Source of the DNA: Syntrophales bacterium
GTDB lineage: Bacteria; Desulfobacterota; Syntrophia; Syntrophales; UBA2210
Direction: 5' to 3'
Length of the DNA stretch: 64,000 bases
Assembly (NCBI GenBank): GCA_963662405.2
Contig: CAXXKT010000001.1
Coordinates: forward strand, 2,528,001-2,592,000
Under the pieces are notes generated by a model, which saw nothing but the letters and a program-made list of their open reading frames with translations, made no database searches and had not been told where the DNA came from. Position 1 is the stretch's first letter. The number at the start of each line of letters is the position of its first letter. This document shows positions 38,050-43,844 of the stretch, in pieces. The position numbers and the translations under genes are program-made.

Positions 38050-39969
38050 ATGAACGGGCGCTTTCGCATAGGATGGCTGATGTTCTGTGCCACCGTTGTC
38101 TTCATGAATCCGGGCATTACCCTGATGCCCCATGGCGGTGTTTCTCACGCTGCGGGGAACCCCCCGCCGATTATTACACCGATACAACAGCCCGAGGTCA
38201 AACAATCGGCACCGGGCAGTTCCCAGCCGGTGGTCGTTCCCTCCCGTGAGGGACCGTTCTATGCCGTGCAGGCGGCCGCCTGCCGCCGGGAAGAAAACGC
38301 CCGGATCATCATGCAAAAACTGGAGGGGAGGGGATACGAACCGATCCTCTATTCGTGGGCGGACTCGGCGGGAGACGCGTGGCACTCGGTGTTTCTCGGC
38401 CTCTGTGACACTGCCGCCGAGGCTGAGACCGTTGCGCGGCGATACCGCGAAGCGGAGGGAACGGCCGGCTTTATCAAGGTGCTCGACCGGTATGTCCCGG
38501 TGGTGGCTGCGGCACCCGTGACCCACCTCCCCGAACCGCCGTCCCGTCAACCTCAAGTGACGGCTGATCCGAGGCAGGGAAAGACGGCACCGGCCGCCCG
38601 CGATCCGAAAGCCGTTGAGACGGCGGAAGAAGAAAACACCGGCCCGGAGTTTTCCTGTAGCGGTTTTGTCGAGCTCGAGAGTTTCGTCAACACGGGAAAG
38701 GCGGGGAGTGCCAAGGTCAAGAACAAAAAGAACGAGATCCGAAACCGTCTCCGGATACGGTATGGAACCGAGAGCCTCTATCTCTATTCCGTCTCGAACC
38801 TCTATCTTTTCCAGACCTATATGAATGGTGATGCGAACGATCGCTACCGCTATGCAAAGAGACAGGAGGTGTCACGGAACCTGAGGCTTTCCGAGGAAGA
38901 GAGCGAGCTGTCCTTTGATGAACTCTACCTCAACTACGGCGGAAAACATTTCAGACTGCGCGCGGGGAATCAGATATACGCCTGGGGGACGGCAGATGCC
39001 TTCAACCCGACGGCATACTTCAACCCGTCCGACATGCGGGAGATGCTCTTTCGGGACGACGATGAAGAGAAGGCGGGGGTCCCCTCCCTTTCCGGGATGT
39101 TTTTCTTGGGCGACTGGACCCTGGAGACCGTTCTCGTCCCCGTGCATGTCCCCCCGATTATGCCGGTGGAAGGGGACTTCTGGTCCCTCGCGATTGACAA
39201 TACGCTCCTGCCGGTCGTCTTCGATGAACCGGACACCCTCAGTTTCGGTGCCGACCATGTCGGGTACGGCGCCCGGCTCTCGACCAGTTTTGGGAGTGTC
39301 GATATGTCAGTGAGCGGATACTACGGACCGGACAGGAACCTCCTCTTTATCCCTTATGAGGTCACCTTTGACGGCTTTACCCCCGTCTGTCTCCGGATCA
39401 GGCCGCAGTCCTTTATGGTGACGATGTTCGGATTCGACCTCTCGGCGGTCCTGGGCGATGTCGTTGTCCAGGTTGAGGCGGTCTATTCGCCCGACAAGGT
39501 GGGGGTCGTCGAGCAGCGGACCACCAATCTCATGAGCGTGACCCTCCCCTTCGAGACGGACCGGGCGCATTATGTCTCCTACTCCGTCGGATTCAACTAT
39601 TTTATCCCCCTCGATACTCTGATAGAGGGACACACGGGGGATACAGTCTTCACCGCCGAGTGGTACACGGCGCAGTATCTGGAAGGGGGGATCTACACCC
39701 CGTATATCACCAATATCCTGAGCTGCAAGTTCCAGGACAGTTACTTCGACGGCCGTTTTAAGACGACCGTCAAGGGGATCTTCGATACGAGACACGGGGG
39801 AAAGATCTTCTGGCCCGAGATCAGGTATGACTTCCAGAACGGATTCCTCATCGAGCTCGGCTATGCCGCCATCTGGGGGGATAGGGGCGATTCATGGGAA
39901 GACGATTCGCTCTTCTCCTATTTCGAGGATAATGATGTGGTCATGATGAAGGTTCGCTACCAGTACTGA
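38050..39969 (+). CDS. SPOR-domain protein fused to a DUF1302-like outer-membrane beta-barrel
   Basis: Signal peptide; FYAVQAAAC..ENA SPOR-like; LRAGNQIYAWGTADAFNPT; C-terminal VRYQY aromatic end. Confidence 0.7.
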   Translation: MNGRFRIGWLMFCATVVFMNPGITLMPHGGVSHAAGNPPPIITPIQQPEVKQSAPGSSQPVVVPSREGPFYAVQAAACRREENARIIMQKLEGRGYEPILYSWADSAGDAWHSVFLGLCDTAAEAETVARRYREAEGTAGFIKVLDRYVPVVAAAPVTHLPEPPSRQPQVTADPRQGKTAPAARDPKAVETAEEENTGPEFSCSGFVELESFVNTGKAGSAKVKNKKNEIRNRLRIRYGTESLYLYSVSNLYLFQTYMNGDANDRYRYAKRQEVSRNLRLSEEESELSFDELYLNYGGKHFRLRAGNQIYAWGTADAFNPTAYFNPSDMREMLFRDDDEEKAGVPSLSGMFFLGDWTLETVLVPVHVPPIMPVEGDFWSLAIDNTLLPVVFDEPDTLSFGADHVGYGARLSTSFGSVDMSVSGYYGPDRNLLFIPYEVTFDGFTPVCLRIRPQSFMVTMFGFDLSAVLGDVVVQVEAVYSPDKVGVVEQRTTNLMSVTLPFETDRAHYVSYSVGFNYFIPLDTLIEGHTGDTVFTAEWYTAQYLEGGIYTPYITNILSCKFQDSYFDGRFKTTVKGIFDTRHGGKIFWPEIRYDFQNGFLIELGYAAIWGDRGDSWEDDSLFSYFEDNDVVMMKVRYQY

Positions 39970-40004
39970 CCGTTTCATTCAAAAAGGAGGAATGATAAAA
40001 AGTC

Positions 40005-40200
40005 TTCATGAGCTGTGAATTGGGATACACTGTTTGAAACTTTATAGTTTTGGGCAGCAAGGCTACTGTTCGACATGTTTACTGGTCTTCGAGACCGCAA
40101 AGGAGAATGAAGAGCTGTAGCCGCAACATTCAATGATCTTCGAGATCGAATAGGAGATTGGGACCAATTCACCTGACAGGCGCTGTCCAAGATGTGAGGA
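40005..40200 (+). ncRNA. Candidate bridge/seek RNA of the IS110 element
   Basis: Two parallel modules, GGTCTTCGAGACC+AAAGGAG and GATCTTCGAGATC+ATAGGAG, matching the target and donor sites; enclosing stems GGCTAC/GTAGCC and GGGCAGC/GCTGTCC. Confidence 0.7.
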
Positions 40201-40208
40201 GGCGTTCT

Positions 40209-41321
40209 ATGAAGATGAGTATCGGGGTTGACCTTCACAAGACGCAGTTTACCGTTTGTTGTTTGAGTGAAGATCGGAGTGTTCAGGAGTCGGGCATCTA
40301 CCCGACGACTGATCGAGGTTACCGGGCATTTATCATGAAGGTGTCCAACTGGAATGAGGGCGGTTACGAGGTCACGGCAGCGGTGGAATCAACAGGGAAC
40401 ACCCGACACTTTCGCAACCGGTTTTTGAAGGCGGGGATTGAGGTCAAGATAGTGAACACCTTGAAATTCAAGGTTGTAAATGAGTCAGTAAAAAAGACTG
40501 ACAAGCATGATTCCCGCACATTGGCTGAGTTTCTTGAGAAAGATATGCTTCCCGAGTCCATTCTTTGTTCGCAGGAAAGCGAGGACATTCGAAGGCTTCT
40601 CAAGTCACGTTCTGTTCTGGTGAAAGCTTTGGTATCCTTGAAAAACCAGATACACGGTTTATTGCTTGGATATGGGATAGAGAGTCGGCGGGGACAGCTG
40701 CAGAGCAAAAAAGAAAGGCAGCGAATCCTTGACGGTCTCGCGGACCATAGGAGTTACGGAAACGCTGCCCGAGCGGTAAAACCGCTTCTTGGTACAATAG
40801 ACCAAATTGCATCCGAGGTCAAAGGACTTGAGCGCGTATTATCTGATCTTGTTTCTGAAGACGAGGATGTTGCTCTGTTGCAAACGATTCCTGGCGTTGG
40901 AATAATAACAGCAGCGACGATTCGGGCTTATACCGATGACATCAACCGATATGAGAGCGCCAAGCAGTATGCTGCTCATGCCGGTTTGGTACCATGGGTT
41001 CAAAACTCCAACAAGACCATTCGCCATGGTCATATTACCAAGCGAGGCCCCGTGGAACTGAGGACGGCTTTTGTGCAAATGGTAATGGGGATGCTACGGC
41101 TTCGGAATAAAACCGATGGATATTGGCTTATGTACAAATACAAAGCCATGAAAGAGAACAAGGGAACCGGGAAGAGCGTAATAGCGACGGCGCGAAAGAT
41201 GAGCACTATTGTATATGCCATCTTGAAGAAGGGGGAGCCGTTTGATCCATCGAAAATGCTGCCAGACCCGAAATATGTAGAGATGAGTAAGGTTGCGAGG
41301 TGTTATGCTTTGGCCGTTTAA
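40209..41321 (+). CDS. IS110-family DEDD recombinase/transposase
   Basis: GVDLHK, ESTG, KTDKHDS (DEDD), IPGVG, AGLVP..QNS, ARKM motifs. Confidence 0.95.
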   Translation: MKMSIGVDLHKTQFTVCCLSEDRSVQESGIYPTTDRGYRAFIMKVSNWNEGGYEVTAAVESTGNTRHFRNRFLKAGIEVKIVNTLKFKVVNESVKKTDKHDSRTLAEFLEKDMLPESILCSQESEDIRRLLKSRSVLVKALVSLKNQIHGLLLGYGIESRRGQLQSKKERQRILDGLADHRSYGNAARAVKPLLGTIDQIASEVKGLERVLSDLVSEDEDVALLQTIPGVGIITAATIRAYTDDINRYESAKQYAAHAGLVPWVQNSNKTIRHGHITKRGPVELRTAFVQMVMGMLRLRNKTDGYWLMYKYKAMKENKGTGKSVIATARKMSTIVYAILKKGEPFDPSKMLPDPKYVEMSKVARCYALAV

Positions 41322-41382
41322 ATTTTAACCATGGGCCTGTTTGACAGGCTCTCCATGAATTGACTTTTTATAGGAGGAAGAC

Positions 41383-42102
41383 ATGAAGGAGCAAAATCGG
41401 AGCGCCCTGATACTGGGTGTCTGTATCTTTCTGGGACTGGCCTTTCTCGGGTTTTTCCTGGGGCAGAGCGCCCTGAAGGTTAAGGCGTATGAACGGACCG
41501 TGACCGTGAAGGGGCTCTCGGAGCGGGAGTTCCCGGCCGATATCGTCCTCTGGCCGATCCACTTTTCCACGTCGGACAACGATCTCACGGACCTGTACGC
41601 GGCCATCGAACGGGATTCGCAGGAGATTATCGGATTCCTGAGGAAGAGTGGATTCGAAGGGGGGGAGATCACGGTGTCTTCCCCCGGGATTACCGACAAA
41701 TTGTCCCAGGGATACGAAAAATCGAAGATCGAGTTCCGCTATACCGCCGCCCGGACCATCACGGTCTATTCCACCAAGATCGAAGCGGTGCGCTCCGCAA
41801 TCAACGGGCTGGTCGAACTGGGGAAGAAAGGGATCGCCTTTACCGACAACACCTATCAGGGCCTGCCCGCGACGGAGTACCTCTTCACCCGCCTGAACGC
41901 GGTCAAACCGGGCATGATCGAGGAGGCCACGATGAAGGCGCGGGAGGTGGCGATCAAATTTGCGCAGGACTCCGGCAGCAGGGTGGGGAAGATCAAACGG
42001 GCGAGGCAGGGACAGTTCTCGATCTCAGACCGGGATCGGAATAATCCGCACATCAAAAAAATACGGGTCGTCTCGACGGTCGAATATTATCTGTCGGATT
42101 GA
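41383..42102 (+). CDS. SIMPL (DUF541) domain protein
   Basis: ERTVTVKGLSERE, KFAQDSG..VGKIKRARQGQFSI, RVVSTVEYYL. Confidence 0.9.
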   Translation: MKEQNRSALILGVCIFLGLAFLGFFLGQSALKVKAYERTVTVKGLSEREFPADIVLWPIHFSTSDNDLTDLYAAIERDSQEIIGFLRKSGFEGGEITVSSPGITDKLSQGYEKSKIEFRYTAARTITVYSTKIEAVRSAINGLVELGKKGIAFTDNTYQGLPATEYLFTRLNAVKPGMIEEATMKAREVAIKFAQDSGSRVGKIKRARQGQFSISDRDRNNPHIKKIRVVSTVEYYLSD

Positions 42103-42263: not shown

Positions 42264-43844
42264 ATGTCTCAGCCTCCTATCACTCTCTCCATCATCCTTG
42301 GGTTATCCGCCCTGCTGGCGGTATATCTGGCCGCCTGGGCCCATTTCTATTCCCGCGTACCGGCAGCGCGAGAATTCTTCTTCCTCATGTTGGGAGTCGC
42401 AATCTATTCGTTAGGGTATTCAATCGAGATTTCCCGCACCACCCTGGAAGCCGCCCTCCGGGCGTTATCCTTTGAATATATTGGTCTTTCCCTCATTCCA
42501 ACCCTATTGCTGCTTTTTGCGCTGCATTTCATCCGGCGGAAACCGCTGCCAAAGGCCCTCACGGCGATTTTGCTGATTATCCCGATGATTACCATTATCA
42601 TGGTATTCACCGCGCCCTTCCACCAGCTTCATAATATGAATCCCCGGTTGGTCAATACGGAATTTTTTCTCGCCTTCGTGTTTGAACGTGGTCCCTGGTA
42701 CAAGATCAACTATGCATGGGCGGAACTGAACATCATCAGCGCATTTATCTTGCTGCTTGTAAACGCGTTACGTGTCCCGCACAAGCAAAAGCGGCAGGCA
42801 ATCACCATTGCCGCAGGCGCAGTTCTCCCCTTACTCGGTTCCATCCTTTACCTGCTCAATTTGATTCCCGGTAAGATTGACCCCATCCCTTTCAGCCTGG
42901 TGGTGACGGGCCTGTTTTTGGCCTTTGCCCTCTTCAAACTGGGACTTTTTGAACTTGTCCCCGAAGCGAGAGAGTTGGCACTCGATTCAATTCGAGATGG
43001 TTTTCTGGTGCTGGACAGCAATGAAAACTTGCAGGATCTGAACCAGGCTGCTTTGCGCCTGCCCGGAGCGATGGGTTTCCGTATCGGCAGCCCATTGCCG
43101 GAAGGAAATTCGCTGGCAGAACAATTAAACCCCCTGCTGATAAAAGACGTAAAAGAGATCGAGTATTCGGTGGAATTTCCAGACCACTCAATCCATTTCT
43201 ATCACGCCACAGCATATCCGATCCATACCACAACGCGCCAAAACAGCGGCACGGCAATTCTGATCTCTGATGTCACCGAAACCGTTGGACTGGTGAAGAA
43301 GCTGAACCGGCAGGCCAACACCGATGAACTGACAGGCATCTTTAACCGCCGTTACCTGATACAATCGGGCATCCAGGAGTTACAGCGTGCCCGCCGCGAC
43401 GGGACACCCCTCGGCATCATTATGATGGATCTGGATTTTTTCAAGCATATCAACGATTCCTATGGACACCAAGCCGGAGACGAGGTACTGCACAGCACGG
43501 CGAAGTGTTTCCATAGTGGTTTGCGGGACGGTGATATCTTGGGCCGCTACGGTGGCGAGGAATTCGTCGCGCTTCTCCCCAGCGCCGACCTGCCCGCTGT
43601 CATTCAGATTGCTGAGCGCCTTCGGCAGCAGATTGAAAATTTGGGAATTCCTTTTGGAGAACGGAAAATCACCGTCACCGCCAGTTTTGGTGTGCATGCG
43701 TATTGCGGCAATCGGGATACTTCACTGGACGAGTTGTTACACCGAGCTGACCAAGCGCTTTACAAGGCAAAGAAAAGCGGGCGTAACCGGGTGGTCAGCC
43801 TGACACAGACCGAATGTGGCGGTGAACCGGAGACTGTTCAATAA
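42264..43844 (+). CDS. 7TM (HisKA_7TM) sensor-PAS-GGDEF diguanylate cyclase
   Basis: Seven hydrophobic segments, DELTGIFNRR, RDGD I-site, RYGGEEF. Confidence 0.9.
   Translation: MSQPPITLSIILGLSALLAVYLAAWAHFYSRVPAAREFFFLMLGVAIYSLGYSIEISRTTLEAALRALSFEYIGLSLIPTLLLLFALHFIRRKPLPKALTAILLIIPMITIIMVFTAPFHQLHNMNPRLVNTEFFLAFVFERGPWYKINYAWAELNIISAFILLLVNALRVPHKQKRQAITIAAGAVLPLLGSILYLLNLIPGKIDPIPFSLVVTGLFLAFALFKLGLFELVPEARELALDSIRDGFLVLDSNENLQDLNQAALRLPGAMGFRIGSPLPEGNSLAEQLNPLLIKDVKEIEYSVEFPDHSIHFYHATAYPIHTTTRQNSGTAILISDVTETVGLVKKLNRQANTDELTGIFNRRYLIQSGIQELQRARRDGTPLGIIMMDLDFFKHINDSYGHQAGDEVLHSTAKCFHSGLRDGDILGRYGGEEFVALLPSADLPAVIQIAERLRQQIENLGIPFGERKITVTASFGVHAYCGNRDTSLDELLHRADQALYKAKKSGRNRVVSLTQTECGGEPETVQ

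What the first reader, a model, noticed from the sequence alone, without database searches (positions are those of the whole stretch)
39985..41383. IS110 element with a bridge RNA apparently programmed to target Shine-Dalgarno sequences
Seen: AGGAGGAA occurs at both junctions, with sub-terminal IRs just inside. Removing the element gives CAAAAAGGAGGAAGACATG, which is the SD plus start codon of the SIMPL gene. The joined ends give a donor TTTATAGGAGGAATGATAAA. The about 200-nt non-coding region before the recombinase has two parallel modules. Module 1 is TGTTT-ACT-[GGTCTTCGAGACC]-GC-AAAGGAG (40076-40105): AAAGGAG equals the target left arm, and UGUUU pairs with the target right arm GAAGA at 4 of 5 positions including one G-U. 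Module 2 is CATTC-AAT-[GATCTTCGAGATC]-GA-ATAGGAG (40127-40156): ATAGGAG equals the donor left arm and CATTC is the exact complement of donor GAATG. Established: IS110/IS1111 recombinases use ncRNA target- and donor-binding loops. Inference: the target guide is a Shine-Dalgarno motif, so the element would land in front of genes rather than inside them, and its right end rebuilds the SD (ATAGGAGGAAG-ACATG). The mix of IS1111-like sub-terminal IRs, an upstream non-coding region and guides read right-arm-first is also unusual. Caveat: CATTC could instead pair intramolecularly with GAAT at 40148.
Basis: partly seen in the sequence, partly recalled or inferred. Interest (0 to 1): 0.88.

Follow-up and report, generated by a model that had tools for sequence, protein, structure and literature searches.

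The report
Jumping gene aimed at ribosome-binding sites
This is an active RNA-guided insertion sequence whose own guide RNA spells a ribosome-binding site, so its copies sit between that site and the start codon of host genes and leave a replacement site behind. The habit was already known from mycobacterial relatives, but here the guide RNA itself can be read.

Summary
The element is real. It is 1387 bp (39990-41376), not 39985-41383, and the genome holds 9 near-identical copies.

The upstream non-coding region folds into two bridge-RNA loops, and compensatory changes in 27 homologs support the fold.
- **Left target arm:** the 3' strand of loop 1 (AAAGGAG) covaries with the left flank at positions -7 and -6 (0-1 of 2000 shuffles).
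- **Right donor arm:** the 5' strand of loop 2 (CAUUC) covaries with the element's first 5 nt.
- **Right target arm:** A conserved CAU, a sharp 6-nt spacing to ATG and weak covariation suggest that the start codon is the second anchor.

In the own genome, 7 of 9 copies lie 5-9 nt upstream of an ATG-ORF. So do most of about 60 insertions in homologs from Desulfobacterota, Spirochaetota and Lentisphaerota.

The architecture is mixed: the non-coding region lies upstream as in IS110, but the guide order and the 10-bp sub-terminal repeats are IS1111-like.

Insertion between the Shine-Dalgarno (SD) sequence and the start codon is known for IS900/IS901. This scan has also noted such elements in at least 8 other genomes. 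I rate it a new variant of a known kind.

The parts
39983..39989 (+). Host Shine-Dalgarno = left target arm (AAAGGAG), ending at the crossover
   Evidence: The left flank is AAAGGAG in 8 of 9 copies and TAAGGAG in 1. It is identical to the loop-1 3' strand.
39990..41376 (+). The insertion sequence, 1387 bp
   Evidence: The ends are set by 9 copies. Contigs of 4 public runs break at 39982/3 and 41376/8.
39990..39994 (+). Right donor arm (GAATG), the first 5 nt of the element
   Evidence: It covaries with the loop-2 5' strand: GTATG/CAUAC, GCATG/CAUGC, GCACG/CGUGC, GAGCG/CGUUC.
39993..40001 (+). TG-extended -10-like box (TGATAAAAA) of the presumed circle-junction promoter
   Evidence: Read from the sequence. 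GATAAAA is invariant in 27 homologs. Promoter function is inferred.
39995..40004 (+). Left sub-terminal inverted repeat (ATAAAAAGTC)
   Evidence: I8: 10 nt, 100% complementary to 41362-41371.
40015..40172 (+). Structured core of the bridge RNA, closed by the 9-bp stem 40015-40023 / 40164-40172
   Evidence: I10. In the alignment, 94.2% of cells pair against 87.2% shuffled (0/500), and 13 pairs carry changes on both sides.
40061..40122 (+). Target-binding loop: basal stem 40061-40071 / 40109-40122, distal hairpin 40084-40096
   Evidence: Helices 2 and 3 pair in 96-97% of cells, with compensatory pairs.
40074..40083 (+). 5' strand of the target loop: conserved CAU (40074-40076) followed by a variable U-rich stretch; candidate start-codon / right-arm guide
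   Evidence: CAU is present in 26 of 27 homologs. Evidence comes from the spacing bias and from weak covariation anchored on ATG. In this copy CAUGUUUAC pairs with GAAGACATG at 8 of 9 positions.
40099..40105 (+). Left target guide (AAAGGAG), on the 3' strand of the target loop
   Evidence: Covaries with the left flank at positions -7 and -6.
40123..40163 (+). Donor-binding loop, with distal hairpin 40135-40147
   Evidence: Helix 4 pairs in 100% of cells, with 13 and 10 changes on both sides.
40127..40131 (+). Right donor guide (CAUUC)
40150..40156 (+). Left donor guide (AUAGGAG)
   Evidence: Identical to the last 7 nt of the element. It is invariant in the homologs, so no covariation test is possible.
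40209..41321 (+). DEDD/serine recombinase gene, 370 aa
   Evidence: Pfam PF01548 + PF02371; NF033542. D, E, D, D and S align with the catalytic residues of IS621 and ISCro4.
41360..41365 (+). -35-like box (TTGACT) of the presumed junction promoter
   Evidence: Read from the sequence. TTGAC is conserved at the right end of main-group homologs. It lies 17 nt from TAAAAA once the ends are joined (inferred).
41362..41371 (+). Right sub-terminal inverted repeat (GACTTTTTAT)
   Evidence: I8.
41370..41376 (+). Left donor arm (ATAGGAG), which becomes the replacement Shine-Dalgarno for the host gene
   Evidence: The same in all 9 copies and in nearly all homologs.
41377..41385 (+). Right target arm: 6-nt spacer GAAGAC plus the ATG of the host gene
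   Evidence: The spacer length is the modal 6 nt.
41383..42102 (+). Host gene downstream (SIMPL / DUF541 family)
   Evidence: PF04402, E = 1.9e-16.

Best explanation
An active IS110-family element (39990-41376) moves through a circular form and is steered by a bridge (seek) RNA encoded in its 219-nt left end.

**Guide layout.** The RNA has two internal loops.
- In each loop the 3' strand carries the sense sequence of the left half-site up to the crossover. Loop 1 reads AAAGGAG, the host SD. Loop 2 reads AUAGGAG, the element's last 7 nt. Each would pair with the bottom DNA strand.
[quoted passage not shown] Loop 2's CAUUC pairs with the element's first 5 nt, GAATG. Loop 1's conserved CAU, plus a few following bases, probably pairs with the start codon and the bases just upstream of it.

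**Reaction.** Recombination occurs within the shared GAG, most likely AG, which is CT on the other strand as in IS621. It places the element right after GGAG, about 6 nt ahead of ATG and co-oriented with the gene.

**Consequences.** The host SD then heads the element. The element's ATAGGAG takes over as the SD of the host gene at unchanged spacing. Joining the ends would build a promoter: TTGACT, 17 nt, then TG-extended TAAAAA.

**What is shown and what is inferred.**
- Shown: the ends, the copies, the fold, left-arm and donor-arm covariation, and the SD/ATG context.
- Inferred: the RNA itself, the circle, the promoter, read-through expression, and the exact cut sites.
- Probable only (about 55%): the start-codon anchor.
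For: - **Copies:** 9 copies with fixed ends and variable right flanks.
- **Gene context:** 7 of 9 lie 5-9 nt upstream of ATG-ORFs of at least 71 codons.
- **Homologs:** recombinases at 31-91% identity in 77 loci share the ends, both loops and the SD/ATG context.
- **Fold:** supported by 13 pairs with changes on both sides; 94.2% of cells pair against 25-44% when the partners are slid.
- **Left guide:** covaries with the flank at -7 and -6.
- **Right donor guide:** covaries with the element's start.
- **Catalytic residues:** D, E, D, D and S are aligned.
- **Core:** position -4 lies outside the exchanged core (L059, L083). Position -2 lies inside it: L012 and L078 have GGGG at the right junction and GGAG at the left, and L078's own target guide reads GGGG.
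- **Start-codon anchor, spacing:** it is 6 nt in 28 and 5-7 nt in 46 of 59 insertions of CAU-bearing elements. The background is 19% and 43% for free AAAGGAG sites in this genome, and 24-30% at 6 nt in a 400-kb sample of genome G031. In G031, 12 of 15 insertions have 6 nt (P about 9e-5 at p = 0.30).
- **Start-codon anchor, natural control:** the Lentisphaerota group, whose loop lacks CAU, shows a broad spread of 2-10 nt.
- **Start-codon anchor, covariation:** bases after CAU covary weakly with bases just before ATG: 0.488 against 0.373, 4/3000.
- **Read-through:** no terminator-like site lies between the recombinase stop and the right end.
Against: - **No direct sight of the RNA or the intermediates.** No RNA run holds the stretch, and Rfam gives no match. 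The laid contigs showed no circle-junction or empty-site joint. No usable empty site was found in relatives.
- **The left guide tolerates mismatches.** In G031, 9 of 15 left flanks read TTATAGGAG against the guide UUUAGGAG.
- **Two of the 9 own copies are not in front of a plausible gene** (L003: an 11-codon ORF; L009: no start nearby).
- **The guide 7-mer plus loss of intragenic insertions would already give about 70% SD sites** (240 of 343), against 7 of 9 observed. This genome alone therefore does not require a second arm.
- **The start-codon evidence is weak.** CAU never varies, so it cannot covary. Its CA may simply close the loop by pairing with the UG after GGAGAA (pairs 103-139 and 104-138). 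The covariation beside it is weak (49% paired) and was picked from several registers tested.
Confidence: 0.85

Rival explanations
1. One-arm targeting only. The RNA reads nothing but the 7-nt SD arm. The nearness of ATG and the 6-nt spacing come from where AAAGGAG-type sites naturally lie, and from the loss of insertions that break genes.
For: - The right flanks of the 9 own copies share no motif.
- No covariation appears in the register homologous to the donor loop.
- Among free AAAGGAG sites that are not intragenic, 240 of 343 are SD sites, close to the observed 7 of 9 (P = 0.46).
- The variable part of the 5' strand drifts freely between homologs.
- An IS621 preprint reports that substrates matching only half of the bridge RNA can recombine (abstract only).
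Against: - The spacing is much sharper than background: 12 of 15 at 6 nt in G031 against 24-30%.
- The CAU-less Lentisphaerota group has a broad spread.
- Weak covariation exists when flanks are anchored on ATG (4/3000) and in the matching junction register (8/2000).
- The one homolog without CAU (L059) also has a non-SD left arm and no ATG nearby.
Confidence: 0.3
2. Many insertions are directed by the donor loop rather than the target loop. Sites reading ATAGGAG are bound by the left donor guide, as a half-match.
For: - In G031, 9 of 15 left flanks read TTATAGGAG. That matches the donor guide over 7 nt, while the target guide is interrupted at -7.
- That 8-mer is not among the common SD 8-mers in a 400-kb sample of the genome.
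- The abstract of the half-match preprint reports such donor-loop-driven events for IS621.
Against: - It is seen in one genome only.
- In the window's genome, 8 of 9 flanks match the target guide, not the donor guide.
- Several G031 sites share a host repeat (a hairpin plus a T-run before the SD), which could by itself explain the recurrent flank.
Confidence: 0.1
3. The two modules are not DNA guides. They would be a structural or regulatory leader of the recombinase mRNA, for example SD-like decoys or a small ORF, with the protein alone reading the SD.
For: - No RNA data are available.
- AAAGGAG followed by AATG could be read as an SD plus ATG of a 9-codon ORF in the window copy.
Against: - The 3' strand of loop 1 changes together with the flank in homologs, and the 5' strand of loop 2 changes together with the element's start. 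A leader or decoy does not predict this.
- The ATG after the guide is not kept; homologs read GGAGATTGA or GGAGACTGA.
- The protein family is known to be RNA-guided.
Confidence: 0.03

Closest known systems
IS621 / ISCro4 and other IS110-group bridge recombinases (Durrant 2024, PMC11208160, passages; Hiraizumi 2024, PMC11208158, passages)
   Same: - A DEDD + Ser recombinase.
- The non-coding RNA lies upstream of the gene, with a target loop followed by a donor loop.
- Left guides pair with the bottom strand and right guides with the top strand.
- The -35 box lies in the right end and the -10 box in the left end.
- The likely 2-nt core reads CT on one strand.
   Different: - The order inside each loop is reversed. 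Here the top-strand (right) guide is 5' and the long bottom-strand (left) guide is 3'.
- CT lies on the strand opposite to transcription.
- The right donor guide does not cover the core: AAU faces GAG.
- The sub-terminal repeats are 10 bp, not 2-3 bp.
- The target is a generic signal with one strongly specified arm, not a 14-nt unique or REP site.
- Sequence likeness is low: 69-71 bits, mostly in the C-terminal domain.
IS1111-family elements with seekRNA (ISEc11, IS4321 and others; Siddiquee 2024, PMC11187229, passages)
   Same: - The top-strand match lies 5' of the bottom-strand match.
- The sub-terminal inverted repeats are long (7-17 bp in that family; 10 bp here).
- By BLASTP the recombinases of this clade score 69-87 bits against IS4321 and 17-32 bits against ISEc21.
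   Different: - The non-coding region is upstream here (left end 219 nt, right end 55 nt), not downstream.
- The protein has 370 aa, against 330-350 aa stated for IS1111 transposases.
IS900 / IS901 of Mycobacterium avium (IS110 family)
   Same: They insert between the Shine-Dalgarno sequence and the start codon. I saw this only as a citing sentence in Plague 2010 (PMC2942039), which cites Doran 1997 and Inglis 2003. I did not see those two papers.
   Different: - From recall only: IS900's transposase gene lies opposite to the target gene, whereas here it is co-oriented.
- None of my literature searches found a paper that reads the guide RNA behind that target choice.
ISEc21 (IS110-type seekRNA element; Siddiquee 2024)
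   Same: An upstream non-coding region, and a protein in the same size class (345-385 aa).
   Different: - The guide order is opposite.
- Protein likeness is very low: 32 bits for the window protein.
- Its target lies inside IS3 transposase genes.

Membership tests
IS110 family (sensu lato) RNA-guided recombinases | An N-terminal DEDD RuvC-like domain plus a C-terminal Tnp domain with a serine nucleophile | tested here: met
   PF01548 (E = 8e-19) and PF02371 (E = 3e-20). NF033542 scores 228.9 bits against a cut-off of 140. D, E, D, D and S align with IS621 and ISCro4, whose catalytic residues are named.
IS110 family (sensu lato) RNA-guided recombinases | A non-coding RNA with loops that match both the target and the element's joined ends | tested here: met
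   Target-loop / left-flank covariation. Donor-loop / element-start covariation. The fold has compensatory pairs. The RNA itself has not been observed.
IS110 family (sensu lato) RNA-guided recombinases | A circular intermediate whose junction forms a promoter | not testable with these tools
   -35 TTGACT and TG-extended TAAAAA would lie 17 nt apart once the ends are joined; this is read. The contigs showed no joint, and raw reads were not available.
IS110 group (IS621-like) | The bridge RNA lies in a long left end, upstream of the recombinase | tested here: met
   The left end is 219 nt and the right end 55 nt.
IS110 group (IS621-like) | [quoted passage not shown] | tested here: not met
   The order is reversed here: the 3' side is the long sense-of-top guide, and the 5' side is complementary to the top strand.
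IS110 group (IS621-like) | Only a short (2-3 bp) sub-terminal inverted repeat | tested here: not met
   A 10-bp perfect repeat (I8).
IS1111 group | Sub-terminal inverted repeats of 7-17 bp | tested here: met
   10 bp at 39995-40004 / 41362-41371.
IS1111 group | The non-coding RNA lies downstream of the recombinase, in a long right end | tested here: not met
   The non-coding region is upstream and the right end is only 55 nt.
IS1111 group | The top-strand match lies 5' of the bottom-strand match in the RNA | tested here: met
.
IS1111 group | Phylogenetic placement of the recombinase | tested here: inconclusive
   Only pairwise scores were obtained: 69-87 bits against IS4321, 17-32 bits against ISEc21, and 69 bits by phmmer against IS621. 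No tree with ISfinder references could be built.
SD/start-codon-targeting IS (IS900/IS901 type) | Insertion between the Shine-Dalgarno sequence and the start codon, in one orientation | tested here: met
   7 of 9 own copies. 56 of 60 insertions have an ATG within 12 nt, and 46 have it at 5-7 nt. All are co-oriented with the gene.

The most novel reading that the evidence does not exclude
This would be an old clade spanning several phyla, in which the target loop of the bridge RNA is frozen on the universal translation-start signal: an SD arm plus an AUG anchor at about 6 nt.
- Any bacterium would then offer hundreds of safe, transcribed landing sites.
- The element would carry its own SD to keep the host gene translated.
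- Its architecture would be intermediate between IS110 and IS1111: an upstream RNA gene, but IS1111-type guide order, long sub-terminal repeats, and a protein nearer to IS4321 than to ISEc21. It would thus mark the step at which the RNA gene changed ends.
- The clade would also have spawned about 190-bp non-autonomous derivatives that use the same sites.
Probability: 0.35. Interest if true: 0.7.

Novelty: new variant of a known kind. Interest (0 to 1): 0.55.

Why it matters
- **An old observation gets a mechanism.** It gives a readable RNA-level explanation for the finding that some IS110-family elements land between the ribosome-binding site and the start codon.
- **A short, mostly one-armed guide can work in nature.** A natural bridge RNA here seems to work with one well-specified arm of only 7 nt, perhaps plus a 3-nt anchor. 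This bears on the off-target ('half-match') behaviour of engineered bridge recombinases.
- **Low-cost insertion.** The design is co-oriented, rebuilds the SD and has no terminator. It suggests a way for a transposon to be transcribed from host promoters while limiting harm to the host gene.
- **Annotation.** Such copies can be mistaken for operon genes. They also separate genes from their promoters by 1.4 kb.

Tried and rejected
- **Rfam:** a scan of 39800-41600 at E <= 1 gave no match.
- **RNA evidence:** no RNA holder was listed among the public runs.
- **Laying contigs:** four runs (X1, X3, X4, X5) gave no circle-junction or empty-site joint. They are contigs only, so this says nothing on absence.
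- **Empty site in relatives:** the downstream gene was sought in 30 relatives. Only partial matches at 75-79% identity came back, and the start region of the best one (G001) could not be aligned.
- **The element in relatives:** 0 of 7 same-genus genomes hold a close copy of the recombinase, with this query.
- **Unbiased scan:** all 264 guide-position by flank-position pairs were tested. There was no diagonal; the highest z was 3.7, off-diagonal.
- **Intramolecular CATTC-GAAT pairing:** rejected.
- **Internal promoter-like site** at 40020-40048 (9 of 12 matches): its -10 part is not kept in homologs, so I did not adopt it.
- **Handshake-guide logic of IS621:** the two bases after GGAG do not fit the donor positions they should pair with. 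Judged by eye only.
- **ISEc11 and ISEc21 by the accessions given in the seekRNA paper:** three look-ups failed and ISEc21 was then found. ISEc11 and IS621 sequences could not be obtained, so no tree was built.
- **Metagenome scan with the 17-nt right end:** about 20 of the 80 loci are true elements. Many of the rest are chance or unrelated matches.
- **Literature:** four searches found no paper linking bridge RNA or seekRNA guides to Shine-Dalgarno targeting. Supplements of the bridge-RNA papers were not read and may hold target motifs of this kind.
Full report
**What is there.**
- The window holds a 1387-bp element at 39990-41376.
- A search of the window's own genome (3.8 Mb, 3 contigs) found 9 copies. 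Eight are identical and one has a single SNP.
- Every left junction reads ...GGAG|GAATGATAAA. Every right junction reads ...TATAGGAG| followed by different bases.
- Contigs of four public runs break at 39982/3 and 41376/8.
- The ORF at 40209-41321 encodes a 370-aa protein with PF01548 + PF02371 and NF033542 'IS110 family RNA-guided transposase' (228.9 bits).
- Its D, E, D, D and S align with IS621 and ISCro4. The catalytic residues of IS621 are named in Hiraizumi 2024 (passages).
- A perfect 10-bp sub-terminal inverted repeat lies at 39995-40004 / 41362-41371. The two reader modules form a 32-nt repeat, 78% alike.

**Relatives.**
- A scan of species-representative genomes gave 77 loci with recombinases 31-91% identical. 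They come from Desulfobacterota, Spirochaetota, Lentisphaerota and other MAGs. Three genomes carry many copies.
- The main group (52-91% identity) keeps the same ends. The distant Lentisphaerota group (31-37%) has a different left end (ATGGTATGATAAAT) but the same logic.
- None of 7 same-genus genomes holds a close copy, with this query. Together with the identity of the copies, this points to recent arrival and activity.

**The RNA.**
- MAFFT/RNAalifold on 27 non-redundant left ends gives a target loop with basal stem 40061-71 / 40109-22 and distal hairpin 40084-96. It also gives a donor loop with hairpin 40135-47.
- A 9-bp outer stem (40015-23 / 40164-72) is seen in the single-sequence fold.
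- On the alignment, 94.2% of cells pair, against 87.2% in shuffles (0/500) and 25-44% with slid partners. Thirteen pairs carry changes on both sides.
- Rfam has no match, and no RNA run holds the region. The RNA itself is therefore inferred.

**Guides that are shown.**
- *Left target arm.* The 3' strand of loop 1 has the sense of the left flank.
  - Guide types were paired with the flanks of their own insertions, each type weighted equally. Guide types were then shuffled among the site sets.
  - Position -7 agrees at 0.76 against 0.33 (0/2000). Position -6 agrees at 0.92 against 0.54 (1/2000). Positions -8 and -9 show nothing. Data: 51 junctions, 15 types.
  - With metagenome copies added (67 junctions, 16 types) the result is the same.
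  - Examples: UUUAGGAG, CAAAGGAG, CAAGGAG, GAGGAG and GAAGGAG, each with a matching flank.
  - Loci without a parsed loop or with fewer than 10 nt of flank were left out. The Lentisphaerota loops were read by eye only.
- *Right donor arm.* The 5' strand of loop 2 pairs with the element's first 5 nt.
  - The pairs are GAATG/CAUUC, GTATG/CAUAC, GCATG/CAUGC, GCACG/CGUGC, GAGCG/CGUUC and, in the Lentisphaerota group, ATGGT/ACCGU.
  - Ten distinct combinations give 94% paired against 82% shuffled (3/5000).
GAAT/GGAT does not change with the CATTC variants.
- *Left donor arm.* The left donor guide AUAGGAG equals the element's last 7 nt. It never varies, so only identity can be stated.

**The crossover.**
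- L059 and L083 have A at -4 on the left junction and G at -4 on the right end. So -4 lies outside the exchanged core.
- L012 and L078 have GGAG at the left junction but GGGG at the right junction. L078's own target guide reads GGGG. A heteroduplex core that includes -2 predicts exactly this.
- The core is thus at most GAG, and most simply AG. On the other strand that is CT, the core of IS621, where the top strands are cut just 3' of CT.
- This rests on two to four loci and is an inference.

**The right target arm.**
- The nine right flanks in this genome share nothing.
- Earlier notes of this scan on other genomes claimed that the guide also spells ATG. Prompted by them, I tested that idea.
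- *Conservation.* The 5' strand carries CAU in 26 of 27 homologs.
- *Spacing.* Among insertions of CAU-bearing elements, the gap from GGAG to ATG is 6 nt in 28, 5 nt in 10 and 7 nt in 8 of 59.
- *Background.* Free AAAGGAG sites before ATG-ORFs in this genome show 6 nt in 40 of 216 (19%) and 5-7 nt in 43%. In a 400-kb sample of genome G031 the 6-nt share is 24-30%, while 12 of its 15 insertions have 6 nt (P about 9e-5 at p = 0.30).
- *Natural control.* The Lentisphaerota group, whose loop lacks CAU, spreads over 2-10 nt (14 insertions).
- *Weak covariation.* With CAU set on ATG, the next three guide bases pair with the three bases before ATG at 0.488 against 0.373 (4/3000). The equivalent junction register gives 0.386 against 0.318 (8/2000).
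- *In this copy.* CAUGUUUAC faces GAAGACATG with 8 of 9 pairs, one of them G-U.
- *Against.* CAU cannot covary. Its CA may simply close the loop by pairing with the UG after GGAGAA. The covariation is weak and was chosen among several registers. The window genome's own copies have spacings of 5, 5, 6, 6, 7, 7, 8 and 9 nt.
- I put the start-codon anchor at about 55%.

**Is the gene-front position made by the guide?**
- Only partly. Outside the copies, this genome has 908 AAAGGAG sites.
  - 240 (26%) precede an ATG-ORF.
  - 565 are intragenic by a crude ORF map.
  - 103 are other intergenic sites.
- Seven of 9 copies precede ATG-ORFs of at least 71 codons. One precedes an 11-codon ORF and one precedes nothing obvious.
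- Against 26% this is unlikely (P = 0.0017). Against the 70% expected if intragenic insertions are lost, it is ordinary (P = 0.46).

**Consequences read from the sequence (inferred).**
- The element is always co-oriented with the gene.
- Its last 7 nt replace the SD, with the AGGAG core and the spacing unchanged.
- No terminator-like site lies between the recombinase stop and the right end. Read-through could therefore serve the host gene, and host transcription could serve the element.
- Joining the ends would set TTGACT (41360-65) 17 nt from TAAAAA (39996-40001), which is preceded by TG. Both boxes are conserved, but they overlap the inverted repeats. I did not scan a joined sequence.

**Comparison with known systems.**
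[quoted passage not shown] The core is covered by all four guides. IS1111 elements carry the RNA in the right end and have 7-17-bp sub-terminal repeats (Durrant 2024, passages).
- In IS1111 seekRNAs the top-strand match is 5' of the bottom-strand match. This is the reverse of ISEc21 (Siddiquee 2024, passages).
- The present family has the RNA gene upstream (IS110-like). Its guide order and its 10-bp repeat are IS1111-like.
- Its right donor guide does not cover the core.
- Seen with the DNA turned by 180 degrees, the geometry is that of IS621, with the genes inverted relative to the site.
- By BLASTP the clade scores 69-87 bits against IS4321 and 17-32 bits against ISEc21. By phmmer it scores 69-71 bits against IS621 and ISCro4. 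No tree was possible.
- Insertion between SD and start codon is credited to IS900 and IS901 in a sentence of Plague 2010 (passage). I did not see the cited papers.
- Four literature searches found no paper that ties a bridge or seek RNA guide to SD targeting. I did not read supplements.
- A 2026 preprint reports recombination by IS621 on half-matched substrates (abstract). This makes a mostly one-armed natural target plausible.

**Verdict.**
- The end coordinates and the right-arm pairing are corrected.
- It is a new variant of a known kind.
- This scan has reported the same kind of element in at least 8 other genomes.

Noticed in passing
L120, L129, L133, L148, L154 (metagenome contigs; roughly the 190 bases ending at the 17-nt match in each locus): A miniature element of about 190 bp without a gene. 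It has the same right end (TTGACTTTTTATAGGAG) and a related left end (TGTAAAATAAAAGCC). It also sits between xAAGGAG and an ATG 6-8 nt downstream. It looks like a non-autonomous derivative moved in trans.
   Followed up: partly
L013-L028 (genome G031), left flanks: Nine of 15 left flanks read TTATAGGAG. This is identical to the element's own right end and one mismatch from the target guide. That 8-mer is rare among the genome's SDs. Several of these sites share a host repeat, a hairpin plus a T-run, just upstream. Either half-match targeting by the donor loop or the host repeat could explain this.
   Followed up: partly
window 40083-40104 and 40726-40747: The hairpin plus left target guide is 82% complementary over 22 nt to a stretch inside the recombinase ORF (I1). 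This may be chance or a long-range RNA contact.
   Followed up: no
window 40099; run X4: One metagenome contig follows the element up to 40099, the start of the guide-coding AAAGGAG. It then continues into an SD-plus-ATG-like sequence (table 7). The guide-coding DNA is itself a near-perfect left target arm, so self-targeting or rearrangement at this point is conceivable. This rests on a single low-depth contig.
   Followed up: no
window 41336-41376; runs X1 and X3: A contig carries a 41-nt copy of the right end with 2 nt missing at 41353, in another context. It is not in the assembled genome, where only 9 right ends are found.
   Followed up: partly
L048, about 2600-2690; L061, about 1370-1400: Short tandem duplications end exactly at the crossover GGAG. 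In L048 the last 28 nt or so of the right end are duplicated. In L061 the duplicated piece is 12 nt of the left target guide. They may be recombination footprints.
   Followed up: no
runs X4 and X5 (marine sediment metagenomes): These runs hold the element at about 99% identity (4 differences in 1238 nt). X4 also holds the flanking genes, but only at about 90-95% identity. The element therefore seems to be shared between related hosts.
   Followed up: no
own genome G000: C1:129720, C1:880575, C1:158583, C2:343311 and others: At least 8 further, distant IS110-family genes (28-34% identity; open frames of 163-425 aa) lie in the same genome. Their targets were not examined.
   Followed up: no
window 38050-39969 and 42264-43844: The upstream neighbour carries SPOR and DUF1302 domains. 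The ORF at 42264-43844 shows a GGEEF-type motif in its translation, so it is probably a diguanylate cyclase. I did not check it against Pfam.
   Followed up: no
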